From the IMG/VR virus record IMGVR_UViG_3300048995_000012, positions 1 to 52,526 of that record: a stretch of DNA of 52,526 bases. One strand, 5' to 3'. Shown piece after piece: positions 5,639 to 50,145 of this stretch; position 1 is the stretch's first letter; each line of letters begins with the position of its first letter. The notes under the pieces are model-generated. The model searched no databases and was not told where the DNA came from. It saw only the letters and a list, made by a program, of their open reading frames with translations. Both the position numbers and the translations under genes were made by a program. Source of the stretch: a virus (taxonomy: Duplodnaviria; Caudoviricetes).

Positions 5639-5929
5639 ATGGACAGCCAGAACCCCACCCCGGCTCCGATACCCGCAAACGCCATCCACCACGGTCAGTG
5701 CGGATCGTGGTGGACCGGCGCCGAGCGATCGCACTGCGGCGGATGCCACGCCACCTTCAGCTCGCTCACCTCGTTCGAGCGCCACCGCAAGGGCATGACC
5801 TGCAACCCGCCTGAGGAAGTCGGCCTAGTCGCCCGCGACAAGCCCTACGGCACCCTCTGGGGCCTCCCCGCACCCGTCGGCGGCTACGGCGCGCTCCACG
5901 GCCGCCGCGAGGCGGAGGCGGCGGCATGA
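5639..5929 (+). CDS. Phage zinc-binding protein (FDXHR-like)
   Basis: CGSWWTG...HCGGCHATFSS...FERHR. Confidence 0.7.
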   Translation: MDSQNPTPAPIPANAIHHGQCGSWWTGAERSHCGGCHATFSSLTSFERHRKGMTCNPPEEVGLVARDKPYGTLWGLPAPVGGYGALHGRREAEAAA

Positions 5930-6321
5930 CCCACCAGACACCCGCCGAAGCCCCCGAGGGCCCCCAGGAGCCGCGTACTGGCCCCGGACGGCAGCCGGAC
6001 CACCCGGACGCGGCGCAGGCGGCCACAGAGCAACTCCGCGCCGACGCCAACACGTGGCGTCTCAAAGCGATCCGCCGCGCCCTCACCGCCAGCCGACTCC
6101 GCGGCACCATCGACGCCTGCATCGACCTCGCCGACGAACCCGTCACCGACCGCACCGCCTGGGGCGACGGATACCGGGCCGGCATCGCCGACCTGCGGGA
6201 AGTGCTGCGGGAGTTCGGGCACCTTGAGCCGCGCGAGCCGCCCGCCCCCGACGGCGGACCGAGCGTCGCCGAGGCGACCGTCGACGACCGCGTCTGGCCG
6301 CTGCAGAAGGCGGGCGAGTGA
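5926..6321 (+). CDS. Hypothetical protein
   Basis: ATGA-coupled; PSVAEATVDDRVWPLQKAGE tail. Confidence 0.7.
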   Translation: MTHQTPAEAPEGPQEPRTGPGRQPDHPDAAQAATEQLRADANTWRLKAIRRALTASRLRGTIDACIDLADEPVTDRTAWGDGYRAGIADLREVLREFGHLEPREPPAPDGGPSVAEATVDDRVWPLQKAGE

Positions 6322-8426: not shown

Positions 8427-8520
8427 GCGCTCTAGAGCAATTCTAGCTACCCGGTCCGCAATGTCGGCTAGCGGAGTCCATTGACCAGCACAGATGTAGA
8501 GCAGGTAGCGTTGCTCTAGA
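8427..8520. promoter_or_regulatory. Divergent promoter region with GCTCTAGAGC palindromic operator-like sites
   Basis: GCGCTCTAGAGCAATT at 8427-8442; inverted copy TTGCTCTAGA at 8511-8520; TTGACC at 8481. Confidence 0.65.
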
Positions 8521-8543
8521 TGAATCCACCCCTAGGAGAGCCC

Positions 8544-9302
8544 GTGCCACGCAAGTCCGGCGAGACACACAAGTACCGGGAGATCGCCGACGACCTGCGT
8601 AGGCGCATTCAGGCTGAGGAGTTCGGGGATAAGCGCAGGCTGCCGGGTGAGCGGAAGCTCGCCGAGCATTACGATGCTTCGCAGATGACTATCCGCCAGG
8701 CCCTTGGAGTGCTGCGCGATGAGGGCCTGGTTGAGTCCCGGGTCGGCTCGGGATGGTTTGTTGCCGAGTGGCGGCCGGTCGTGCGTAACGCCCTCAAGCG
8801 GCTGTCGGCCACCCAGTGGGGCGAGGGTCGGTCCATGTGGGAGGTCGATATCGATGACCGGCGTATGGAGGTCGTTGGCCAGACGCAAGTCGAGCTGATC
8901 GACGCGCCCGAGGATGTAGCGCGCGCCCTCGATTTGGAGGTTGGTGCCCGCGTGTGGAAGCGGGACCGCAGGTATGCCGTCGATGGCGAGATCGTCATGC
9001 GGGCCACGTCTTACATCCCCGATGATCTTGCCCATCACACAAAGATCACCGAGAGCGATTCCGGGCCGGGTGGCACCTATGCCCGCCTTCGGGAAGCCGG
9101 GCACGGCCCGGTCAATTTCCGTGAGCAGCTTCGGTGTCGGCTGGCCAGTCCTGCGGAAGTGGACGACTTGCACCTTGCGGCTGGCGCCCCGGTCGTGGAG
9201 CAGCACCGCTCAGCGATGCGTGCCGACGGCCGCGTGGTCGAGGTCAACCGAATGGTTCTGGACGCGTCGAGATTCTTGCTCGTGTACGACTTCCCTGCCT
9301 GA
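8544..9302 (+). CDS. GntR/HutC-family repressor with UTRA domain (TraR/KorSA-like)
   Basis: YREIADDLRRRI...LPGERKLAEHY...TIRQALGVLRDEGLV; C-terminal UTRA (GPGGTYARL..GH, VEVNRMVL); heads a tra operon. Confidence 0.88.
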   Translation: MPRKSGETHKYREIADDLRRRIQAEEFGDKRRLPGERKLAEHYDASQMTIRQALGVLRDEGLVESRVGSGWFVAEWRPVVRNALKRLSATQWGEGRSMWEVDIDDRRMEVVGQTQVELIDAPEDVARALDLEVGARVWKRDRRYAVDGEIVMRATSYIPDDLAHHTKITESDSGPGGTYARLREAGHGPVNFREQLRCRLASPAEVDDLHLAAGAPVVEQHRSAMRADGRVVEVNRMVLDASRFLLVYDFPA

Positions 9303-9366: not shown

Positions 9367-9397
9367 GCGCTCTAGAGCTATTGATTGCTCTGTAGCA
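9367..9397. promoter_or_regulatory. Operator-like site at tra operon promoter
   Basis: GCGCTCTAGAGCTATT and TTGCTCTGTAGCA, matching sites upstream of the GntR gene. Confidence 0.65.
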
Positions 9398-9447
9398 GTC
9401 TGCTTCTATGTAGTCGTCCACCCCAGTCGACCGCAGGGGAGCACCTA

Positions 9448-9687
9448 GTGACGCCTGTCTCCGTCGCCCCCACGGGCGGCTTCCTCACCACTGGAGAGGT
9501 CGCCATTCGCATAGGCGGCACTCCGCAACACGTTCGTGAACTGATCAAGTCCGGCCGCATCGAGGCGATCGATATCGCCAAGGGCCAGGGCCGTCCCCGC
9601 TTCCGCGTCTCCGAGGCCGCGCTCGCCGCCTTCCTCGACAGCGCCGCCGTCCGCACCGACTCCCAGCCCACCTCGGAGGTGGCGTGA
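9448..9687 (+). CDS. Excisionase-like HTH_17 DNA-binding protein
   Basis: FLTTGEVAIRIG.TPQHVRELIKSGRIEA...RFRVSEAALAAFL. Confidence 0.85.
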   Translation: MTPVSVAPTGGFLTTGEVAIRIGGTPQHVRELIKSGRIEAIDIAKGQGRPRFRVSEAALAAFLDSAAVRTDSQPTSEVA

Positions 9688-9689
9688 CC

Positions 9690-9953
9690 ATGAGCACCGC
9701 AACCCAGACCCCCGCCCCCGTCCGTCGGTCGGGCACCCCCGCCCTGTCGCCCGCCGTGCTCCGCTTGCGGATGCAGATGCGGGCCGCGCACTACAACCCG
9801 GACCTGTCGCACTCGGTCGAGGCGCTCGCCTGTGTCGCCGCCATCGACACCGCCCGCCTGGCCGCCGTCCTCACCGGGAACGCCCCGCTCGACTGGCGCA
9901 TCCCGCAGCGACGCCTCGCCGAGATCCTCGGCGTTGAGGCGGTGACGGCATGA
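9690..9953 (+). CDS. Hypothetical protein
   Basis: GGAGG RBS, coupled. Confidence 0.65.
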   Translation: MSTATQTPAPVRRSGTPALSPAVLRLRMQMRAAHYNPDLSHSVEALACVAAIDTARLAAVLTGNAPLDWRIPQRRLAEILGVEAVTA

Positions 9954-10318
9954 GCACCGCAACCCTGACCGTCGCTCTGGAGATTGTCCGCGCCCTGACC
10001 CGCTACGAGATCGCGTCGGCCCGCTACGACGAGCTGGATGCCCGCCCGGCGTCGACGCTGTCCCCGGCCGAGGTGGACGCGTTCCACGCCGCGCAGCAGA
10101 CGGTCACCGAGGCGTTCTGTGTGCTGGCGGAGGCGGGCCGCCTGGACCTGATTGAGCCGGCGGAGACGGCGGCCCGTTACCGGTGGGCGTCCGTGCACTG
10201 CCGTCGCCTGGCCGAGACCGCCGACTTCGACGGCTGTCTTGAGGCGCAGGACGAGATGGCGATGTGCCGCTGCCAGCTCGCCGCCGCGGGCCGACTCGAC
10301 CTGATCGAGGCGGCGTGA
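9950..10318 (+). CDS. Hypothetical protein with internal duplication
   Basis: LAEAGRLDLIE / LAAAGRLDLIE repeated. Confidence 0.7.
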   Translation: MSTATLTVALEIVRALTRYEIASARYDELDARPASTLSPAEVDAFHAAQQTVTEAFCVLAEAGRLDLIEPAETAARYRWASVHCRRLAETADFDGCLEAQDEMAMCRCQLAAAGRLDLIEAA

Positions 10319-11081: not shown

Positions 11082-11297
11082 ATGCGCCCGTCCCGCCCGT
11101 CGACCGTCATCGCGACGATCCTCGGCATCCTGTTCGTGATCGCCTGCCCGCAGTCGATCCCCGCCGCGTTCGCCACCCTCGGCTGGCTGCTCACCAACCC
11201 GGTCGGCACTGTCGCGCTCGGCGCCATGTTCGTCCTGTCGCTGGCCTACTGCGTGTCTGCGGGCCGCCGCGGCTACGGCTGGGGGCGGTCCTGGTGA
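11082..11297 (+). CDS. Small two-TM membrane protein (Spd-like)
   Basis: GGGAG RBS; two hydrophobic segments; lies in tra operon. Confidence 0.65.
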   Translation: MRPSRPSTVIATILGILFVIACPQSIPAAFATLGWLLTNPVGTVALGAMFVLSLAYCVSAGRRGYGWGRSW

Positions 11298-12472
11298 GTC
11301 TCGACATGCTGACGGGTCTGGCTGACGCGCAGTGGCTGCCTGTAGCGGCCGGCGCGCTCGCCTTGTCCGTTGCGGTCTGGCTGCTGGCCCGATCCCGGCG
11401 GCGCGGCACGGACCGCCGTCGCCCCCCGGCCGCAGTCGTGGTCGCCGCGCTGGCCGCCGCAGGCTGCACCGCCTACTCGGCCGACACCAGTTGGCGCTTC
11501 GCCGCTCACCGGCTCGGCATGACGTCCGACACCGAGCGGGCCGCAATGTTCGCCGCTGCGGAACTCGCTCTGTTCGCGGTCGCCTTGATGGCCCGGCAGA
11601 ACCTGAACGGCGTGCAGAAGGCGCCCGGCACCCCCGGAATCCTCGTCTGGGTCATCACCGGCGTTCAGGTCATCCCCGCCTATTCCGAGTCCGGCGTCAT
11701 CGGCGGCACCGTCCGCGCCTTCGTCGGACCGGTGCTCGCTGCGCTGCTGTGGCACCTCGCCATGGGTATCGAGCTGCGGCACGCCAAGCCCGGCGCCAAC
11801 TCGCAGTCCCTGCCTGCCGTCATCGCCCGCGAACTGCGCGAGCGGATGCTGTCGCGGCTCGGGCTGGCCACGCGCAACCGCACTGCTGAACAGATCTCCC
11901 GGGACCGGGCCACGGCCATCGCCGTGAAGCTCGCATCCCGCCCGACGCTTCGCCGCTGGGGCCGTAGCCGCCTTGCCGCTGCGGTTGCCCGTTCCGGCGT
12001 AGGTACGGACGCGGCGCAGCGGGATGTCCTGCTGCAGCTGCTGGCCGCCCGCCGTGGTGCCATCTCGCTCGCCACGATCGATCTCCGTTCGCCGTTCGAG
12101 GCGGAACCGGATGGCGGAACCAATCCAGGAACCACGGCGGAACCAGTTCCGGCCCGCGTCGTCCTGGTTCCGGTTCCGGCCCGCGACCGCCAGCCGGTTC
12201 CGGCCCCCGCGGAACCGCGCCCGGAACTACAGGCCGTGCCGGAACCAGTCACCGAGGCGGAACCGAAGAGCGCCCCGGAACCGGCACGGCGGACCCGACG
12301 CGCGACACCCGGAAGCGACAAGGGCTCCGCGTTCAACAAGCACGTCCGTGCCGCCCAGCGCTGGCTCTCCAGCGACCCCGCAATGTCGGGCGCCGACATC
12401 GGCAAGAAGCTCGGCACCTCCGACCGGTACGGCCGCAAGGTCCGCACTGCAGCCCTCGCACAAGCCAGCTGA
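11294..12472 (+). CDS. SpdB/DUF2637-like membrane protein with Pro-rich linker and C-terminal HTH
   Basis: About 5 N-terminal TM segments; C-terminal MSGADIGKKLGTSDRYGRKVR HTH; upstream of traA-traB. Confidence 0.75.
   Translation: MSLDMLTGLADAQWLPVAAGALALSVAVWLLARSRRRGTDRRRPPAAVVVAALAAAGCTAYSADTSWRFAAHRLGMTSDTERAAMFAAAELALFAVALMARQNLNGVQKAPGTPGILVWVITGVQVIPAYSESGVIGGTVRAFVGPVLAALLWHLAMGIELRHAKPGANSQSLPAVIARELRERMLSRLGLATRNRTAEQISRDRATAIAVKLASRPTLRRWGRSRLAAAVARSGVGTDAAQRDVLLQLLAARRGAISLATIDLRSPFEAEPDGGTNPGTTAEPVPARVVLVPVPARDRQPVPAPAEPRPELQAVPEPVTEAEPKSAPEPARRTRRATPGSDKGSAFNKHVRAAQRWLSSDPAMSGADIGKKLGTSDRYGRKVRTAALAQAS
12102..12316. repeat. Intragenic CGGAACC array (7 direct, 3 inverted, 5 one-mismatch copies)
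   Basis: Direct at 12102, 12115, 12138, 12210, 12240, 12258, 12276; inverted at 12166, 12172, 12196. Confidence 0.9.
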
Positions 12473-12513: not shown

Positions 12514-13182
12514 ATGGCAGGCAATGGATCCGTGAACCGGACCAACAACCAACGCATCCGCGAAGCCCGGCACGCCGGCCGTCCGCTCATCGACGCCGAC
12601 AGCGGGGCAACAGTCCCGCCGCCCCCCAACTACCCGCCGAGCAACGGGCGGGCCTCGACTGCTGCGCCTCAGCAGCGGAACCGAACCCCGAAGATCCAGA
12701 TCAACAAGGTCGGCCTGTTCCCCGAGATGGGCAACCTGCTTCCGCCCATGCAGTTCAGCTTCAGCAAGACCGTCGTCAACGGCGGCGGGGGCGGAACTGG
12801 ATACGGCGGCGGCAAGGCGATGCCCGGCTCCGGGTTCACCAACGACGAGGACATCCGCGCGTTCTGTGAGGCCATCCGCAAGGAGGCCCGGCCCAAGGCG
12901 GTCGAGCGGGCACTGGACGCGGAGACGCTGGAGTCAGTGCTGCGCAGCATCCCTGACGTCCACGGTTCCATGTCCGGCTCCCGGGCGCGGGCCCGCCGCG
13001 TCTCCCGGCACCTGAAGCGGATCGCCGCCGCGGAGAAGCTGATCGCGAAGCAGGCCGCCGCGCTGTACGCGTCGTTCACCCGCGAGTACGAGGCCGAACT
13101 CGCCCAGATCAGCAGCGGGCGCCGACGCAACGAGCCGCGCCGTCACCAGCCCCGACGCAACTCGGCCTGGAAGCCGCGGTGA
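12514..13182 (+). CDS. traA: Plasmid transfer protein TraA-like
   Basis: Position before traB; helical C-terminus SRARARRVSRHLKRIAAAEKLIAKQAAALYASF resembles pSN22/pJV1-type TraA. Confidence 0.55.
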   Translation: MAGNGSVNRTNNQRIREARHAGRPLIDADSGATVPPPPNYPPSNGRASTAAPQQRNRTPKIQINKVGLFPEMGNLLPPMQFSFSKTVVNGGGGGTGYGGGKAMPGSGFTNDEDIRAFCEAIRKEARPKAVERALDAETLESVLRSIPDVHGSMSGSRARARRVSRHLKRIAAAEKLIAKQAAALYASFTREYEAELAQISSGRRRNEPRRHQPRRNSAWKPR

Positions 13183-13322
13183 TCCTCTCCGTTGCCGCAG
13201 CCGCAGCGCTGCTCCATGCGCTGTGGCTGCACCACGAATACGCCGTTCCCGTCCGAGACGCGCTCGCCTCCGATGCCGTCCTGTTCGGGCTCTACCTCCT
13301 CGTCGCCGCCATCCACGGCTGA
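13179..13322 (+). CDS. 47-aa two-TM membrane peptide
   Basis: GTGA-coupled to traA; ILSVAAAAALLHALWL...VLFGLYLLVAAIHG; not in ORF track. Confidence 0.55.
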   Translation: MILSVAAAAALLHALWLHHEYAVPVRDALASDAVLFGLYLLVAAIHG

Positions 13323-13381
13323 CACCCAACTGACCTGCACTGACATCTGCTGACACCTGGAGCTGACACCGTGGCTGACAG
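13318..13381. repeat. Upstream CTGACACC cluster (3 perfect, 3 degenerate) over the traB start
   Basis: Perfect at 13319, 13350, 13363; CTGAC cores at 13330, 13340, 13375. Confidence 0.85.
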
Positions 13382-15371
13382 CCCGAAAGGCGACCTCTAC
13401 AAGGCCGCCAAGCACCCCCGTATGAGGCCCTGGCTGGCCGCCGCCGCCTCCATGCCCGTCAGCCTGGGCATGCACGCCCTGTGGGGCGAATCGGCAGTCG
13501 CCGGCGCGGGCCTCGCCCTTGCGTCTGTCGCCCTGACCGCAACCACCTGGTGGGCGGGCGAAGGAACCAGCCGTCCCCGCCGCCTACACGCAACCTTGTC
13601 CACCGCCGCTGGCACCTCCTACCTGGTGCTGGCCACGGTGACCGACCCGTTCAACCCGTACCTGGCGTCCACCTGGGCGATCGGCGGGGCGGTCGCTGCA
13701 GGCGGATGGAACATGCGGCAGATCCTGCGCGTCAACCCCGACGCCAAGACCGGCGACCAGGCGGCCACCGACACGGGCCTGCTGGTCAAGTCGCTCGGCA
13801 AGGCCAAGGCCGCCCTCAAGGGCGAGCCGAAGGTCGAGCCGAACAAGGTCACCGCCCCGTACAAGTTGGCCGGCGGCGAAATGACCAACGCCGATCTCGC
13901 CAAGCGCATCGACAACATCGCTGGCGAGCTGGGAATCTCCCCCAACAGCATCCGCATCGTCGCCGACCCCGACAACGCAGCCGAGGGCGAGATCATCCTT
14001 GTCCCCAAGGACATGCTCACCGACGGCGCTGCCTGGCCCGGACCGTCGTCGGCGGGCGGATCGATCACCGACCCGATCGTCGTCGGCATCTACGAAGACG
14101 GCGCCCCCGAGCAGTTCTGGTTCCCGGCCGACGAGAAGGCCCGCCGCAACGCCACCCACTTCCTCGTCGCCGGCATGAACGGCTCCGCCAAGTCCACCGG
14201 CATGACCTTCGCCATCGTTGATGCACTGACCAGGCGTGACGTCATTGTGTGGGGCTGCGACCCGTCCAAGGGCATGCAGACGTTCGGGCCGCTGCTGCCC
14301 TACCTCGACTGGGTCGAGATGACGGAGGCGGGCGGCAACAACATGATCGACGCCCTCTCGCAGGTCATCACCGCCCGCGCCGACGAGCTCGGCCGCCACG
14401 GCTTCAAGAACTGGACGCCCGAAGCGTTCGCCAAACTCGCCATGCCGTACATGGTCGTGTGGATCGAGGAGGCCGCAAAGTTCTTCCGCAACGGCACCGA
14501 GATGGAAGGCCTGGTCATGGAGGCCCGCTCCGCGGGCATCAGCGTCATCGTCTCCCTGCAACGCCCGTCCTCCACCTCCATGCCCACTGACGTGCGGGAA
14601 CAGTTGGGTGGCGTGTTCTGCTTCGGCGTCAAGGGCTCCACCACCGCCGACATGGCCCTGCCCGACGACGTCCGCGACGCCGGCGCCAGGCCCGAAGCCT
14701 GGGAAAACCGCCGACCCGGCTACAACTACCTCGTCGCGCCCGGCGTCGACGAGGAGCGCTACCCGATGAAGGCCCGCACCTGGAACCCGGTGAGTGACGA
14801 CATCATCGGCCAGGTGCTTGCGGGCAGCCCGCAGACCCCAGCTGGTCCGACCACGACGCGCGCCGCAGGCGAGTCCTACGCCAACCGCACCATCTACACC
14901 CCCGGACAGTCCCTGACCAGCATCGACGCCAAGGAGACCGTCATGTCCCGCGAAGACGAAAGGGTCGCGGAAGAGGCGCTGTTGGAGCGCCAGGTCGACC
15001 GCGAGATCAACGCCATGGTCGGCGGCGACGATGGTGGGCCCGAGCCGGACGTCGACCCCGACGCCGAGATCCAGCCCGTGCCTGTGAACAGCGTGTGGCA
15101 CTTCGGTGGCGAGCCCGTCCAGCACATCGAGCGCACCCCCGAGGAGGCGGTAGCCGAACTGCTCGCCATCCTCGCCGAACTCCGCGGCGAGGGGCGGGAG
15201 ACGGTCGGGCCGAAGGACTTCGCGCCCTACGGAAAGGGCACCCGCATCGGCCGCTCACGCGCCTGGATCTCCACCAAGCTCACCGATCTCGCCGACGAGG
15301 CCCTCCACTTGGAGGAGACCGACGAGCCCGGCGTGTACAGGCTGCTGTATCCGCAGCTGACACCCGCCTGA
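13371..15371 (+). CDS. traB: Conjugative dsDNA translocase TraB (FtsK/SpoIIIE family)
   Basis: N-terminal TM helices, P-loop HFLVAGMNGSAKST, Walker B VVWIEEAA, EARSAGIS...SLQRP, C-terminal wHTH (GRSRAWISTKL...PGVYRL). Confidence 0.9.
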   Translation: MADSPKGDLYKAAKHPRMRPWLAAAASMPVSLGMHALWGESAVAGAGLALASVALTATTWWAGEGTSRPRRLHATLSTAAGTSYLVLATVTDPFNPYLASTWAIGGAVAAGGWNMRQILRVNPDAKTGDQAATDTGLLVKSLGKAKAALKGEPKVEPNKVTAPYKLAGGEMTNADLAKRIDNIAGELGISPNSIRIVADPDNAAEGEIILVPKDMLTDGAAWPGPSSAGGSITDPIVVGIYEDGAPEQFWFPADEKARRNATHFLVAGMNGSAKSTGMTFAIVDALTRRDVIVWGCDPSKGMQTFGPLLPYLDWVEMTEAGGNNMIDALSQVITARADELGRHGFKNWTPEAFAKLAMPYMVVWIEEAAKFFRNGTEMEGLVMEARSAGISVIVSLQRPSSTSMPTDVREQLGGVFCFGVKGSTTADMALPDDVRDAGARPEAWENRRPGYNYLVAPGVDEERYPMKARTWNPVSDDIIGQVLAGSPQTPAGPTTTRAAGESYANRTIYTPGQSLTSIDAKETVMSREDERVAEEALLERQVDREINAMVGGDDGGPEPDVDPDAEIQPVPVNSVWHFGGEPVQHIERTPEEAVAELLAILAELRGEGRETVGPKDFAPYGKGTRIGRSRAWISTKLTDLADEALHLEETDEPGVYRLLYPQLTPA

Positions 15372-15516
15372 GCTGCGCTGACACCAGCTGACACCCCCAA
15401 GTGGTGTCAGCTGGTGGTGTCAGAGCCGCTGACACCCTCCCCGCCTTAGGTGAGGCGCGTGCGCGCGCGAGCTGACACCCCCCTGACACCTGCCTCCGAC
15501 ACCTCCCTGCTGTCAG
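15356..15516. repeat. clt-like locus: CTGACACC array (6 direct, 2 inverted, 2 degenerate)
   Basis: Direct at 15357, 15378, 15388, 15429, 15472, 15483; inverted at 15403, 15416; right after traB as for known clt loci. Confidence 0.85.
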
Positions 15517-15552: not shown

Positions 15553-16167
15553 ATGCGCGTCACCGTCCAGCGCACGACCCGCCGGGGCGGCCACCAGAAG
15601 ACCCACATCGGCCCTTGGGCGATCGCCGGAGTCGTCGTCGTGGTGATCGTCACCGCCAAGTGGATCGCCGCCCATGCGGTGCTCTCGATGATGCTGGCCG
15701 CGGTCGTGATCGCTGCGGCGATCGTCTTCTGGGTGAAGCTGCGCCCCGCCCTCCGCGTCCGCAAGTCCGGCGCCCTGGTCGCAACAGACCCTCACCGCCT
15801 CGACCCCGACGAGTTCGAGCACTTCCTCGCCGACCTGTGCCGCCGCGACGGCTGCCGCAACGTCCGCGTCGTCGGCGGCGCCAACGACCACGCTGCGGAC
15901 GTGCTCTACACCGACCCTCACGGACGGCGTGCCCTCATCCAGGCGAAGCGCTACCAGCGCGGCAACAGCGTGGGAAACGAGCACGTGCAGATGGTCAACG
16001 GCACCTACCGCGACGCCCACGGCTGCACCCACGCATCAATCGTCACCACCCCGCGCTTCACCGCTTCGGCCCGCCAGTACGCCCAGCACGTCGGCATTGA
16101 GCTCGTCGACGACGCCCGCCTCAACGCCTGGATTGGCGGCCAGCGCGCCGCCGCCCCCTGGAACTGA
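15553..16167 (+). CDS. Membrane-anchored Mrr-like PD-(D/E)xK restriction endonuclease
   Basis: Two N-terminal TM segments; FEHFLADL...GGANDHAADV...IQAKRY...VTTPRFTASA. Confidence 0.88.
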   Translation: MRVTVQRTTRRGGHQKTHIGPWAIAGVVVVVIVTAKWIAAHAVLSMMLAAVVIAAAIVFWVKLRPALRVRKSGALVATDPHRLDPDEFEHFLADLCRRDGCRNVRVVGGANDHAADVLYTDPHGRRALIQAKRYQRGNSVGNEHVQMVNGTYRDAHGCTHASIVTTPRFTASARQYAQHVGIELVDDARLNAWIGGQRAAAPWN

Positions 16168-48517: not shown

Positions 48518-48820
48518 TGGGGCCGGAATCGTGGGGAGAATCTGGGGAGCGGATGCCGCCGGGGAGGCGCTGGGGGGACTCGCTCGTCAGTAATGCATCT
48601 CAATGAAGCTCAAAGCATCTTCAAGTATCGCAGCAGTTCATTGGGTCACCGGCGGGACGAGCCGCAACCCGCCGCAGGTCACGGAACACCGGGCGACAGA
48701 ACCCGGCGTACAGCCCGACTCGTCTGCCCTGTAGGTCATTGACCTGCAGGAACGCCCCGGCTTCCTTGATCCATACCGGCGCTGGGGAGAATCTGGGGAG
48801 AATCAGAACCGGGGGAGATC
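48518..48820. other. attP: integrase arm-type repeats TGGGGAGAATC flanking the core, plus Xis-site-like 10-bp repeats
   Basis: Perfect arm units at 48532, 48783, 48794 with degenerate copies; taatgcatct/caatgaagct/caaagcatct/tcaagtatcg at 48591-48630. Confidence 0.82.
48683..48727 (+). other. attP core matching the 3' end of RNase P RNA (rnpB fragment, not a full gene)
   Basis: GACAGAACCCGGCGTACAGCCCGACTCGTCTG matches, from recall, conserved region V/P4 and the P1 3' strand of Streptomyces RNase P RNA. Confidence 0.8.
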
Positions 48821-50145
48821 TCGGGAGCCTCATCCGCCTCACCGGCGGGGGCATCACCAGCGCCGGGGGACAGGAACCGCCCGAGCGCCACAATCCCCAT
48901 GCTGCCAGACTTCGGCATGAAATGCGTGTACGTCCGCAGCGTGAAAGCCGGATCTGAATGCCCCAGCCACGCAGCCAGCCTTGTGATGGTCTCACCGGCC
49001 TGCAGCACGACCGACGCGAACGTGTGCCGGGTGACGTGGAAGCCGTCCTCGCGTGGCATGTTCCACGCGATCCGCGCCCACGGCTTCTTCCCCTCGCCCT
49101 GCACCCACTCGGTCTCCGGCTTCGGAATCACTCCGGCCCGAACCAGCGACGGCTTCCACGTCTTGTCATCGAACGTGACCCGGTTAACCGCCCCGCCGGC
49201 GACGCCCCCCGTGCGCGGAGTCGTCACAAGCAGCCGCACCGTCCGCTTCGGCCGGTCCTCCCACGCCAGGTTCGGCCGGTCCGGATCCACCCACGGCAGC
49301 GTCACCTCCACCGTCGGAAAAGAGTTGGCGTACTCCTTGACCGCGGCAGCCAGCTCGGGCGGGCACGGCGCTGTGCGCTCCTTGTTGCCCTTCGGCGGCG
49401 CGAAGCCGAGACGGGAGTTGACCCGGACGATCTGACGCACCACCCCGATCTCCTCGCCGTCAATGTCGTCCGGAGAGAAGGCGAGCGCCTCACCCTGACG
49501 CAGCCCCGCCCCGACTCCTAGAGCCAGCAGGATCCGGTACCGGGGAGGAAGCGCCTCCCGCATCGCGGCCACGGTCTCCTCCGGCCACGCCTTCGCCTTC
49601 GACGGCGGCACGGCCGGCGCCTTCAAGTCCTCGTCGCGGAACGGGTTCGCCGGAATCCGCTTCGCCTTGTACGCGGCCTGCATGATGGACGAGAAGTGCC
49701 GCCAGGTCACGGAGAGGGTGCTGACGTCGATGTTCTGCTCGGCGCGCGTCACCCAGGCTTTGATCTCGTCATGGCCGATGCGGTTCAGCGGCAGGTGCCC
49801 GATGTGCGGCAGGATGTGGTTGAACACGCGGGGCTTCATGGACTGCTTCGTCGTCGGCGACTGACGGAGCGTCGGCCACCACTTCTCCTCGACGTACCAC
49901 TGCAAGGTGACGTTGCCGTCCCGCGGATCGTAGAACTCCCCGCGGACCGTGTCCGTCTGCGCCTTGGCCATCCACTCCTCGGCGCCGCCTGGGCCCTTGA
50001 GGTTGGTGAAACTGCGATCCCGGACGCCCGGGATGCCGGCCACGCGCCAGCGCTTGCCCTGCTTGTAACGATCCGTCTTGCGCTTCTTGCCCGTTTCCGG
50101 GTCGGGTCGCTTGGTCCACCACCGATCCTCGATGTAGCCCGGCAT
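48736..50145 (-). CDS. int: Tyrosine integrase
   Basis: GLRQGE (R), PPKG (K), FHVTRH (HxxR), LGH, TYTH (Y); C-terminus runs into attP arm. Confidence 0.95.
   Translation of the reverse strand: MPGYIEDRWWTKRPDPETGKKRKTDRYKQGKRWRVAGIPGVRDRSFTNLKGPGGAEEWMAKAQTDTVRGEFYDPRDGNVTLQWYVEEKWWPTLRQSPTTKQSMKPRVFNHILPHIGHLPLNRIGHDEIKAWVTRAEQNIDVSTLSVTWRHFSSIMQAAYKAKRIPANPFRDEDLKAPAVPPSKAKAWPEETVAAMREALPPRYRILLALGVGAGLRQGEALAFSPDDIDGEEIGVVRQIVRVNSRLGFAPPKGNKERTAPCPPELAAAVKEYANSFPTVEVTLPWVDPDRPNLAWEDRPKRTVRLLVTTPRTGGVAGGAVNRVTFDDKTWKPSLVRAGVIPKPETEWVQGEGKKPWARIAWNMPREDGFHVTRHTFASVVLQAGETITRLAAWLGHSDPAFTLRTYTHFMPKSGSMGIVALGRFLSPGAGDAPAGEADEAPEISPGSDSPQILPSAGMDQGSRGVPAGQ

What the first reader, a model, noticed from the sequence alone, without database searches (positions are those of the whole stretch)
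12102..12316. Hidden two-strand CGGAACC array inside the Spd-like membrane-HTH gene
Seen: 10 perfect and 5 one-mismatch copies in ~215 bp, in both orientations and in different codon phases (giving AEP, GGT, VP), so protein-level repetition does not explain it. The array encodes the linker directly before the protein's own C-terminal HTH, and the motif differs from the traB-flanking CTGACACC. Inference: this is a second DNA-binding array embedded in coding sequence. It may be bound in cis by the membrane-anchored HTH protein, tethering the phage DNA to the membrane, which would give two protein-and-array pairs in one island.
Basis: partly seen in the sequence, partly recalled or inferred. Interest (0 to 1): 0.78.

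Follow-up and report, generated by a model that had tools for sequence, protein, structure and literature searches.

The report
A membrane protein gene of a Streptomyces mobile element carries, in the DNA coding for its floppy linker, a dense cluster of a 7-base word that most likely is the docking site for the protein's own DNA-binding tail, a design that recurs with different words in many related elements.

Summary
The window holds 10 perfect and 5 one-mismatch CGGAACC copies at 12102-12316, on both strands and in several codon phases. About 0.03 perfect copies are expected there by chance.

The array fills the predicted disordered linker (residues 261-341) of a 392-aa protein. That protein has five N-terminal membrane-type helices and a confident C-terminal three-helix HTH.

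The repeat is held at the DNA level. It is built from rare codons (GAA, GTT, GGA).

Six Streptomyces loci have an HTH only 40-53% identical to the window's, unrelated linker residues and a different N-terminus. All six still carry 11-14 CGGAACC copies just before that HTH.

Among about 100 homologues, each C-terminal HTH class has its own linker word. TraB types do not follow these words and have their own clt arrays. The window's traB is flanked by CTGACACC, the word of the pWTY27 clt.

Best reading: a self-contained cassette of a site array plus its cognate membrane-anchored HTH, distinct from TraB-clt. Binding and the tethering role are inferred, not shown.

I found no description of this in print. 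It is a new variant of a known kind.

The parts
11294..12472 (+). Gene for a 392-aa SpdB/DUF2637-like protein: membrane domain, disordered linker, C-terminal HTH
   Evidence: Single ORF with GC3 0.82. No Pfam, PHROG or NCBIfam match. At least 1,789 homologues at E<=1e-5, mostly named 'hypothetical', a few named DUF2637 or HTH. The nearest Atlas clusters are DUF2637 (0.95, 0.92), with weaker leads to SpdB_N and HTH_SpdB_C. AF2 model.
11294..12097 (+). N-terminal part (residues 1-268): five long hydrophobic or amphipathic helices, then a conserved helical cytoplasmic domain
   Evidence: Model helices at 14-37, 46-73, 79-105, 113-130 and 134-162; helical domain with pLDDT >90 at residues 201-250. 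Hydropathy stretches at 12-34, 45-63, 82-101 and 134-161. K/R-rich loops at 33-44 and 159-200. Conserved in all homologues.
12102..12316 (.). Array of CGGAACC: 10 perfect and 5 one-mismatch copies, order 4 forward, 4 reverse, 7 forward; proposed site cluster for the HTH
   Evidence: P = 6.5e-22; 0 of 200 codon shuffles; rare codons. Coincides with the disordered linker, residues 261-341, pLDDT 40-54.
12317..12469 (+). C-terminal three-helix HTH domain (residues 342-391), the proposed reader of the array
   Evidence: AF2: helices 342-360, 366-373 and 377-391, pLDDT about 97. Domain-only model has pLDDT 83.7. Foldseek finds no significant E-value, but the best matches are HTH domains of Lrp/AsnC, FapR and DeoR regulators, rmsd 1.3-1.8 A over 40-42 residues. 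Invariant W, L, P, G, I, G, L, S, D, Y, G, R, A in 8 relatives.
12514..13182 (+). traA (plasmid transfer protein TraA)
   Evidence: NCBIfam NF041213, 101.6 bits, cut-off 80.
13320..13385 (.). Upstream CTGACA(C) repeats overlapping the traB start
   Evidence: Read; GCTGACA x4 in the 5' flank.
13371..15371 (+). traB, FtsK-like conjugative DNA translocase
   Evidence: NCBIfam NF041214, 832.5 bits, cut-off 800. 65% identical over full length to traB of plasmids NC_019307.1 and NC_013449.1; 42% over residues 16-470 to that of pWTY27, NC_013667.2.
15355..15500 (.). clt-type array of CTGACAC(C), both orientations, starting inside the traB 3' end
   Evidence: 8 copies. In pWTY27, TGACACC repeats at the same place are bound by the translocase and needed for transfer (PMC3583192, abstract and passages).
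8520..9302 (+). GntR/UTRA regulator (TraR/KorA-type position)
   Evidence: Pfam GntR 2.8e-19 and UTRA 2.8e-21.

Best explanation
The CGGAACC cluster is a DNA-level array of recognition sites. It is written into the coding DNA of the disordered linker of an SpdB/DUF2637-like membrane protein. Its most likely reader is that protein's own C-terminal HTH.

Array and HTH form one cassette. The cassette is independent of the neighbouring TraB translocase, which has its own CTGACACC clt array.

Proposed working (inferred). The protein is inserted into the membrane with its tail in the cytoplasm. Many tails of the oligomeric protein bind the 10-15 sites in the gene they were just made from. This fastens the element's DNA to the membrane, at the Spd/TraB DNA-moving machinery. 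The fastening marks this DNA, and no other, for spreading through the mycelium or for stable inheritance.

Shown here: the array; its DNA-level constraint; the protein architecture; the co-variation of word and HTH. Inferred: binding, action in cis, and the biological role.
For: 1. Real and non-random. Ten perfect copies lie in 181 bp where 0.035 are expected. No codon shuffle out of 200 reaches the observed count.

2. DNA-level constraint in the window.
- Linker Glu codons are GAA in 7 of 9, against 73 of 352 in 16 other window genes (P = 4e-4).
- Linker Val codons are GTT in 4 of 8, against 42 of 542 (P = 2e-3).
- Linker Gly codons are GGA in 3 of 4, against 70 of 768.

3. DNA-level constraint over the 8 linkers of this class.
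- EP is GAA-CCN in 46 of 52 cases.
- GT is GGA-ACC in 20 of 22 cases.
- VP is GTT-CCN in 22 of 33 cases.
- The codon before EP ends in G in 46 of 49 cases.

4. Architecture. The array coincides with the disordered linker, and the HTH that follows is confident.

5. Same HTH class, same word, nothing else shared.
- A search of 401 Streptomyces genomes with the 53-aa HTH found 7 genomes, one of which holds L025.
- In the 6 new loci the HTH is 40-53% identical to the window's and the linker residues differ. All 6 have 11-14 perfect CGGAACC copies just upstream of the HTH.
- Of 28 window genes, only the HTH part recurs in all six loci.
- Neither the window's N-domain nor a TraB-like gene was found there within +-8 kb.

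6. Each HTH class has its own word among 103 homologue loci. Examples are CGGGTAC, CGGATGC, GGGGACCG, CGGGCAG, AGGACGC and GCGCCAC.
- 42 of 96 evaluable linkers exceed all 200 shuffles.
- 32 of the 37 linkers with >=6 copies have >=2 copies on each strand.

7. Enrichment. Arrays of >=8 copies per 300 bp number 44 in 55.9 kb of tails, against 15 in 1,164 kb of the rest.

8. Fine co-variation in the GGGGAC class.
- With 'GRND' in the HTH, base 7 is C in most or all copies: 80% or more in 11 of the 12 such loci, 3 of 4 in the twelfth.
- With 'GRNE' in the HTH, base 7 is a C/G mix.

- The CGGGTAC class goes with three different TraB C-terminal types.
- One TraB type (SDVLVWRLRR) goes with three different words.
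- TraB 3' flanks carry other arrays that follow TraB type.

- PDB chains 2ve8, 2j5o and 2j5p match at E about 1.5e-3, and the top six hits are all FtsK.
- Pfam FtsK_gamma matches below its cut-off in 8 of 14 members.

11. Precedent. SpdA2 of pIJ101 binds a palindrome inside its own gene (PMC4170104, abstract and passages).
Against: - No binding data exist.
- The array and the HTH are adjacent, so co-inheritance alone gives much of the class-level co-variation. On the N-domain tree the tail behaves as one swapped block (14 changes, minimum 7), which does not separate array from HTH.
- Between the window and L025, motif positions are only marginally better kept than the rest of the linker: 86 of 104 against 84 of 118, P = 0.056.
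- Arrays are not universal. 54 of 96 linkers do not exceed all shuffles. Two HTH classes (GGTCACC, GGTGAAC) have only 2-5 copies.
- In the AGGACGC class the copies are one-stranded and in one frame (QDA/EDA), as a protein repeat would be.
- The same kind of word also fills the TraB N-terminal coding DNA of L003/L004, which lack that HTH class.
- The window's own HTH has no significant match in Pfam, in PDB sequences or by Foldseek.
- pSVH1 SpdB2 was reported to bind DNA without specificity (PMC4447253, discussion passage).
Confidence: 0.6

Rival explanations
1. The array is a clt/TRS cluster read by a TraB-type translocase. The reader would be either the resident TraB or the TraB of an ancestor whose gene was later replaced. 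Under this reading the HTH next to the array is irrelevant.
For: Known clt loci are arrays of 7-9-base words in direct and inverted order: pWTY27 TGACACC, and pJV1 CCGCACA[C/G][C/G] (the pJV1 positions were checked). In some relatives the linker word recurs at the 5' end of the TraB-like gene: CGGGTAC x8 in L007, x7 in L019, x5 in L026; CGGGCAG x3-4 in L075, L084 and L104. L025 has the same array but a different TraB-like gene.
Against: The window's TraB has its own CTGACAC(C) arrays on both flanks, the word bound by the pWTY27 translocase. TraB C-terminal types do not follow the linker word, whereas the 3'-flank arrays do follow TraB type. CGGAACC arrays occur in six loci where no TraB-like gene was found within +-8 kb. 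No CGGAACC copy lies in either traB flank of the window.
Confidence: 0.07
2. There is no DNA function. The linker is a Pro/Glu/Ala/Val-rich low-complexity spacer that grows by slippage and small duplications. The 7-mer is a by-product, homogenised by concerted evolution.
For: The linker is 17 Pro, 11 Ala and 9 Glu out of 74 residues. Longer 16-nt units repeat at 24-27-bp spacing (family D4). The AGGACGC class looks like an in-frame QDA/EDA repeat. QDAQDA repeats also occur in TraB N-termini. Motif positions are only marginally better conserved than the rest of the linker (P = 0.056).
Against: Rare codons are used almost without exception. The same 7-mer is read in three or more strand/phase combinations that give different residues: AEP, GGT, VP, RN, GS. 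The word is identical in loci whose HTH is only 40-53% identical and whose linker residues differ. 32 of the 37 strong arrays are two-stranded.
Confidence: 0.1
3. The array is a functional site cluster, but for another factor. Candidates are a different element-encoded or host DNA-binding protein, or an origin of replication or partition site placed in a tolerant coding stretch. Phage lambda is the model here: its ori iterons lie in the linker-coding part of gene O (recalled, not checked here).
For: Several other HTH proteins are encoded nearby: GntR at 8520-9302 and HTH_17 at 9385-9687. No replication initiator was identified in the island. Relatives carry further unexplained arrays 5-7 kb upstream. 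SpdA2/sps of pIJ101 affects stability and not transfer.
Against: Of 28 window genes, only the HTH tail recurs in all six other CGGAACC loci; a weak GntR-HTH match appears in 2 of 6. The word changes whenever the adjacent HTH class changes.
Confidence: 0.13
4. The inverted copies act at the RNA level or as a DNA hairpin, for example in attenuation, mRNA stability or a cruciform.
For: Forward and reverse copies pair in the predicted fold: -110.2 kcal/mol, z = -2.37, with 4 of 200 shuffles folding at least as well.
Against: The z-score is modest. No Rfam family matches at E<=1. In L113-L115 and L117 nearly all copies point one way, so no hairpin is conserved.
Confidence: 0.02

Closest known systems
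TraB (FtsK-like translocase) with its clt/TRS repeats on Streptomyces plasmids (pWTY27, pSVH1, pJV1)
   Same: A cluster of 7-9-base words in both orientations, partly inside coding DNA. It is read by a C-terminal (winged) HTH of a membrane protein of the same element, and the word differs from element to element. The window has such a pair at traB.
   Different: The CGGAACC array lies in another gene and uses another word. It does not follow TraB type and occurs where no TraB was found. The presumed reader has no ATPase motor.
SpdA2 and its sps palindrome on pIJ101 (PMC4170104)
   Same: A Spd protein of a Streptomyces conjugative plasmid binds a short sequence that lies inside its own coding region. 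The site imposes an amino-acid motif on the protein. Loss of either protein or site lowers plasmid stability (abstract and passages).
   Different: SpdA2 is small and not described as membrane-bound there. Its site is one conserved 12-bp palindrome repeated 2-3 times and is the same in many plasmids. Here there are 10-34 copies of a 7-8-base word that differs by HTH class. I did not test sequence similarity to SpdA.
SpdB2 of pSVH1 and SpdB/DUF2637 membrane proteins
   Same: A multi-pass membrane protein encoded in the spd/tra region. SpdB2 oligomerises, forms pores, binds dsDNA and interacts with TraB; homologues are noted on actinophages. The window's N-domain has DUF2637 clusters as nearest Atlas neighbours, with leads to SpdB_N and HTH_SpdB_C. 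The SpdB-like ORF of pJV1 (666-1781) also has a two-strand array, GTGAGCG/CGCTCAC, in its tail.
   Different: SpdB2 was reported to bind DNA without sequence specificity. There is no detectable sequence similarity between the window protein and the pJV1 ORF (E = 20). No Pfam match in the library at hand.
FtsK gamma domain reading KOPS
   Same: A small C-terminal winged HTH of a membrane protein reads a short oriented word that is over-represented in the DNA to be handled. The tails of the CGGATGC and CGGGTAC sister classes resemble it in sequence.
   Different: The window's own HTH class gives no FtsK match. KOPS are spread over a chromosome, not packed into one gene.
Phage lambda O protein and ori iterons; phi29 p16.7; Noc-NBS (all recalled, not checked here)
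   Same: Lambda: the binding sites of a protein lie in the linker-coding part of its own gene. p16.7 and Noc: DNA is drawn to the membrane by a membrane-bound DNA-binding protein.
   Different: There is no evidence here for replication initiation. p16.7 is not sequence-specific, and Noc sites are spread over the chromosome.

Membership tests
clt / TRS array of a TraB translocase | Repeat cluster at or overlapping the end of the translocase gene | tested here: not met
   The array lies 0.9 kb upstream of traB, inside another gene. The window's traB flanks hold 0 CGGAACC copies and their own CTGACAC(C) arrays.
clt / TRS array of a TraB translocase | The word co-varies with the TraB C-terminal recognition domain | tested here: not met
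   One linker word goes with three TraB C-terminal types, and one TraB type goes with three words. The window and L025 share the word but not the TraB.
clt / TRS array of a TraB translocase | Bound by TraB and required in cis for transfer | not testable with these tools
   Needs EMSA and mating assays.
SpdB / DUF2637-type membrane protein with C-terminal HTH | N-terminal multi-pass membrane domain of the DUF2637/SpdB_N type | tested here: inconclusive
   No Pfam match at E<=0.01. Five long helices in the model. Nearest Atlas clusters carry DUF2637 in 15-58% of members (scores 0.95, 0.92, 0.89), and SpdB_N clusters score 0.84. Two of the 120 listed homologues are named DUF2637 by a source.
SpdB / DUF2637-type membrane protein with C-terminal HTH | C-terminal helix-turn-helix domain | tested here: met
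   Three-helix domain with pLDDT about 97. The best fold matches are HTH domains, though none has a significant E-value.
SpdB / DUF2637-type membrane protein with C-terminal HTH | Encoded in the spd/tra region of an actinomycete conjugative element | tested here: met
   The gene lies between a GntR regulator and traA-traB. Homologue loci have the order GntR ... gene ... TraB-like gene.
SpdB / DUF2637-type membrane protein with C-terminal HTH | Needed for pock formation and intramycelial spreading | not testable with these tools
   A genetic test is needed.
SpdA2/sps-type self-embedded binding site | The protein binds a site inside its own coding region | not testable with these tools
   Only co-variation supports it.
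SpdA2/sps-type self-embedded binding site | Conserved 12-bp sps palindrome and SpdA N-terminal domain | not tested
   The word here is a 7-mer of a different sequence. I did not search the window for sps or compare the protein with SpdA.
FtsK gamma-type winged HTH | Sequence similarity to the FtsK gamma domain | tested here: not met
   The window-class profile A1 gives no FtsK hit in the PDB, and the window tail gives none in Pfam. Sister classes do match.

The most novel reading that the evidence does not exclude
A large family of SpdB/DUF2637-like membrane proteins of actinomycete plasmids, integrative elements and prophages (at least 1,789 members) carries a swappable 'address cassette'. 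The cassette is a short-word site array hidden in the disordered-linker coding DNA, followed by the (w)HTH that reads it; in some classes that HTH is FtsK-gamma-like. The cassette would be a second cis-acting locus of Streptomyces-type conjugation. It would fasten the element's own DNA to the septal Spd/TraB channel and so decide which DNA spreads through the mycelium, as clt decides which DNA is transferred. It would also give integrative elements such as pSAM2, for which no clt motif is described (PMC9513070, discussion passage), a candidate recognition site.
Probability: 0.3. Interest if true: 0.85.

Novelty: new variant of a known kind. Interest (0 to 1): 0.68.

Why it matters
Streptomyces conjugation moves double-stranded DNA with one FtsK-like motor and then spreads it through the recipient mycelium with poorly understood Spd proteins. 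TraB-clt explains which DNA is transferred. Nothing so far explains how the spreading machinery knows its DNA, and SpdB2 was reported to bind DNA without specificity.

A sequence-specific, membrane-anchored reader with its site array inside its own gene would supply that missing specificity. It is directly testable by EMSA, by recoding the linker and by swapping cassettes.

It would also explain why these linkers have such odd codon usage and composition. It shows that disordered-linker coding DNA can be used as space for cis-acting sites. It gives annotators a simple signature for such sites.

Tried and rejected
Closed or failed tools and look-ups:
- Relatives of a virus record cannot be drawn, and 'of' needs a genome handle. 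I went through L025's genome handle instead.
- Papers not held: Vogelmann 2011, PMC3117642, and Servin-Gonzalez 1996, PMC178196. The Sepulveda 2011 paper was not found. Tables of TRS words in those papers might already list some of these arrays; I could not check. I did not ask for supplementary files.
- A literature search for an 8-base TRS word recalled from memory gave only unrelated papers.

Searches that gave nothing useful:
- tblastn of the protein against phage records: no match.
- tblastn of the window's TraB against the homologue loci: only weak hits, because they carry other TraB types.
- A search for the HTH_17-type tail elsewhere in L003/L004, to explain their GGACGCC array: none found.
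- A profile search of the window's HTH class in 401 genomes of the whole class: only weak generic HTH hits outside Streptomyces. I analysed 5 of the 22 loci returned there (L121, L123, L124, L138, L139), and none showed a comparable array. I did not analyse L122, which comes from an unpublished genome, and nothing in this report rests on it.
- Long direct repeats in the whole window, to find att sites: none.
- Foldseek of the HTH model: no match at E<=0.001.
- pCQ3 literature: nothing relevant.
- DUF2637 literature: 2 papers, neither relevant.

Explanations rejected:
- RNA structure and Rfam.

Not run:
- Complex prediction was not used, because it cannot take DNA.
Full report
**1. Observation**

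One search finds 20 perfect CGGAACC in the 52,526-base window, and ten of them lie in 12102-12282 (7 forward, 3 reverse). One search adds five one-mismatch copies up to 12316 and gives the codon phases. On the forward strand, phase 1 reads AEP/PEP and phase 2 reads GGT. On the reverse strand, phase 2 reads PVP/LVP.

The other ten perfect copies are scattered at the chance level (mean 12.0 in 100 shuffles). From that density, 0.035 copies are expected in 181 bp, P = 6.5e-22. No 7-mer exceeds 5 copies in 200 codon shuffles of the linker, against 10 observed.

**2. The gene and its surroundings**

The array lies in one ORF, 11294-12472, of 392 aa. The ORF has no Pfam, PHROG or NCBIfam match.

An AlphaFold2 model built on 34 homologues shows:
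- five long N-terminal helices (14-37, 46-73, 79-105, 113-130, 134-162);
- a helical domain, confident at residues 201-250;
- no structure at 261-341, with pLDDT 40-54;
- a three-helix bundle at 342-391, with pLDDT about 97.

The disordered stretch is the array. Hydropathy and the K/R-rich loops fit a multi-pass membrane protein with a cytoplasmic tail, but I did not test the topology further.

The tail modelled alone gives the same helix-turn-helix. Foldseek finds no significant match. Its best rows are HTH domains of Lrp/AsnC, FapR and DeoR regulators.

The N-domain's nearest Atlas clusters are DUF2637, with weaker leads to SpdB_N and HTH_SpdB_C. These are leads, not a membership test.

Downstream lie traA (NF041213) and traB (NF041214, 832 bits). 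A GntR/UTRA regulator and an HTH_17 protein lie upstream. A phage terminase, portal, capsid, tape measure and lysin, and a tyrosine integrase, lie further on.

The window is a whole IMG/VR record. Its TraB is 65% identical to that of plasmids NC_019307.1 and NC_013449.1 (pCQ3).

**3. The traB pair**

traB is flanked by GCTGACAC(C) repeats. They overlap its start (13320-13385), and they start inside its 3' end and run to 15500, in both orientations.

In pWTY27, four TGACACC repeats at the same place are footprinted by the translocase and are needed for transfer (PMC3583192, abstract and passages). In pJV1, the published clt word lies directly after traB. So the window's TraB has its own clt. 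CGGAACC does not occur in either traB flank.

**4. Is the repeat held at the DNA level?**

In the window's linker:
- Glu is GAA in 7 of 9 codons, against 73 of 352 in 16 other window genes (P = 4e-4).
- Val is GTT in 4 of 8 codons, against 42 of 542 (P = 2e-3).
- Gly is GGA in 3 of 4 codons, against 70 of 768.

Over the eight linkers of this class:
- EP is GAA-CCN in 46 of 52 cases.
- GT is GGA-ACC in 20 of 22 cases.
- VP is GTT-CCN in 22 of 33 cases.
- The codon before EP ends in G in 46 of 49 cases.

The 7-mer is read as AEP, PEP, GGT, TGT, xVP, RNH and GSG, depending on strand and phase. A protein repeat does not explain this.

Copies that arose by duplication are not independent, so the binomial P values overstate the case for the window alone. 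The argument rests on the comparison across loci.

**5. Relatives**

The search for related loci gave 23 viral loci and the best 80 of 302 genomic loci, nearly all Streptomyces. The family has at least 1,789 members.

The part after residue 268 very often holds an array of a short word, but the word differs between lineages. Of 96 evaluable linkers:
- 42 exceed all 200 codon shuffles;
- 37 have 6 or more copies;
- of those 37, 32 have at least 2 copies on each strand, and 34 use at least 3 strand/phase combinations.

Arrays of 8 or more copies per 300 bp number 44 in 55.9 kb of tails and 15 in 1,164 kb of everything else, a 61-fold difference in density.

Listing the last 62 residues by word shows about ten unrelated C-terminal domains, each with its own word:

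| Word | C-terminal domain |
|---|---|
| AGGACGC | HTH_17-like 'LMTSADVAxHYGI..STVRSWV' |
| CGGAAC(C) | 'SGxxIGKKLGxSDRYGR' |
| CGGATGC | 'LRxLQxxLRIGQxRAQR' |
| CGGGTAC | 'IRAIKxRLxVGQxRAKEI' or 'YGIGQPRAxRI' |
| CGGGCAG | 'GRDRVEDALRDAGY' |
| GGGGACCG or GGGGACGG | 'LERDGNE..TRVQLREI..GGRN' |
| GGTCACC (weak) | 'LSRREATELRRQVV' |
| GGTGAAC (weak) | 'GLSVRETARRATRAPSYVH' |

tblastn with 12 class representatives confirms the classes.

**6. Who reads the array?**

TraB does not seem to.
- The CGGGTAC class goes with three TraB C-terminal types.
- The 'SDVLVWRLRR' TraB type goes with GGGGACC, CCGTCCC and CGGGCAG.
- TraB 3' flanks hold other arrays that follow TraB type: GCCTCCC/CAGGGAG in L025, L026, L010 and L060; CGAAACC in L002-L004 and L036; CACTGCC in L012 and L032; CCGCTAG in L055, L083 and L102; CTAGGCC in L031 and L066.
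- Not every locus of a given TraB type shows its array.

The strongest test is the window's own class. A search of 401 Streptomyces genomes with the 53-aa HTH found 7 genomes, one of which holds L025. In the six new loci:
- The HTH is 40-53% identical to the window's.
- The linker residues differ.
- The N-terminus is not detectably related to the window's.
- No TraB-like gene was found within +-8 kb.
- One locus lies beside an SPP1-type portal gene.

All six have 11-14 perfect CGGAACC copies immediately before the HTH. Of 28 window genes, only the HTH part recurs in all six. In the eight HTHs, S, D, Y, G and R of the third helix are invariant.

Within the GGGGAC class, the base after GGGGAC tracks the HTH. 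It is C in most or all copies where the HTH reads 'GRND': 80% or more in 11 of the 12 such loci, and 3 of 4 in the twelfth. It is a C/G mix, tending to G, where the HTH reads 'GRNE'. These are three clades, so the events are few.

The tails of the CGGATGC and CGGGTAC classes resemble the FtsK gamma domain. PDB chains 2ve8, 2j5o and 2j5p match at E about 1.5e-3, and the top six hits are all FtsK. Pfam FtsK_gamma matches in 8 of 14 members, all below its cut-off. That domain reads 8-base KOPS words, which fits the kind of recognition proposed here. The window's own HTH is not of this type.

**7. Caveats**

- The array and the HTH are adjacent, so they are inherited together. On a tree of the N-domain, the tail class needs 14 changes where 7 is the minimum. 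This shows that tails are swapped as blocks, but it cannot separate array from HTH.
- Window and L025 keep motif positions only marginally better than the rest of the linker: 86 of 104 against 84 of 118, P = 0.056.
- More than half of the linkers show no significant array.
- The AGGACGC class is one-stranded and in frame (QDA/EDA). The same word fills the TraB N-terminal coding DNA of L003/L004, where no HTH_17-type tail is encoded.
- In L007, L019, L026, L075, L084 and L104, the linker word recurs at the 5' end of the TraB-like gene. This could mean a second site cluster for the same reader, or a regulatory link. I cannot tell which.
- An RNA-level role is weak: z = -2.37, no Rfam match, and one-stranded arrays in relatives.

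**8. Known systems**

- The closest published case is SpdA2 of pIJ101. It binds a palindrome inside its own gene and affects stability (PMC4170104).
- TraB-clt is the closest in the form of the sites.
- SpdB2 of pSVH1 is the closest in the protein's place and architecture, but it was reported to bind DNA non-specifically. Homologues on actinophages were noted there (PMC4447253).
- The same design is present in classical plasmids. The SpdB-like ORF of pJV1 has a GTGAGCG/CGCTCAC array in its tail. The ORF before traA in pCQ3 has a GATGCGC array.
- I found no paper that describes these linker arrays. Key older papers are not held, so prior mention cannot be excluded.

**9. Verdict**

The array is a DNA-level feature, separate from TraB-clt, and tied to the adjacent HTH across deep divergence.

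The most likely mechanism is that the membrane protein's own tail binds the array and fastens the element's DNA to the membrane machinery. Binding and role are inferred.

It is a new variant of a known kind: a protein whose sites lie inside its own gene, and short-word arrays read by (w)HTH tails of membrane proteins. Interest 0.68.

Noticed in passing
window 13320-13385 and 15355-15500: traB is flanked on both sides by GCTGACAC(C) repeats in both orientations. The 3' set starts inside the gene. The word matches the TGACACC repeats of the pWTY27 clt, which the translocase footprints (PMC3583192).
   Followed up: partly
window 1-52526: The record joins a Streptomyces-plasmid-type conjugation module (GntR, spd-like gene, traA, traB) with phage terminase, portal, capsid, tape measure and lysin, a resolvase and a tyrosine integrase. 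TraB is 65% identical to that of the 85-kb plasmids NC_013449.1 and NC_019307.1. The capsid is 55% identical to one on a 34-kb Streptomyces plasmid. Two of 5 related IMG/VR records also hold a PF05065 capsid. I could not tell whether this is a hybrid element or two neighbouring elements; no att repeats were found.
   Followed up: partly
window 15553-16167: A 204-aa protein with an N-terminal hydrophobic stretch and an Mrr_cat restriction-endonuclease domain (E = 7.9e-26) is encoded directly after the clt array.
   Followed up: no
window 9684-9953 and 9950-10318: Two adjacent small ORFs begin with near-identical DNA (repeat D3/D5, 78% over 40 nt) and share further internal repeats. They look like a tandem duplication. 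Neither has a family match.
   Followed up: no
window 48680-48774 (-): ARAGORN calls a 95-base tRNA-Ile with anticodon aat that overlaps the 3' end of the integrase ORF (48736-50145, -). It may be an attachment-site remnant or a false call.
   Followed up: no
L023:267-541, L066:895-1169, L068:5-265, L026:540-732, L086:1788-2088, L014:1607-1738, L024:2377-2620: Relatives carry further dense arrays of other 7-mers (GCGTACC x8-9, CCGCTAC x11, GCAGGGA x12, CTCGTCC x10, CGAGACC x15). Most lie 5-7 kb upstream of the spd-like gene. They may be iterons of a replication origin.
   Followed up: no
L004:8400-8510, L012:8260-8300, L007:8575-8867: The N-terminal coding DNA of the TraB-like gene also holds short-word arrays. 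In L007, L019, L026 and L012 the word is the same as in the spd-like linker. In L003/L004 it is an in-frame QDAQDA repeat (GGACGCC) without a matching HTH class in the locus.
   Followed up: partly
L141 (pJV1, NC_001759.1) 1444-1747; L118 (pCQ3, NC_013449.1) 5735-6021: Classical plasmids show the same design. The pJV1 371-aa membrane/coiled-coil/HTH ORF has about 9 GTGAGCG/CGCTCAC copies in its tail. The pCQ3 304-aa ORF before traA has 7 GATGCGC-type copies.
   Followed up: partly
L054, L057, L089, L094 (array regions): Runs of about 90 N lie inside the GGGGACC arrays of four genome loci. They are either masked stretches or assembly gaps caused by the repeats.
   Followed up: no
homologue list (P0052, P0081): Some family members carry a GIY-YIG-type nuclease domain (PF13455, PF10544) between the membrane domain and the tail. 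L035 is one such locus, and it has no strong array.
   Followed up: no
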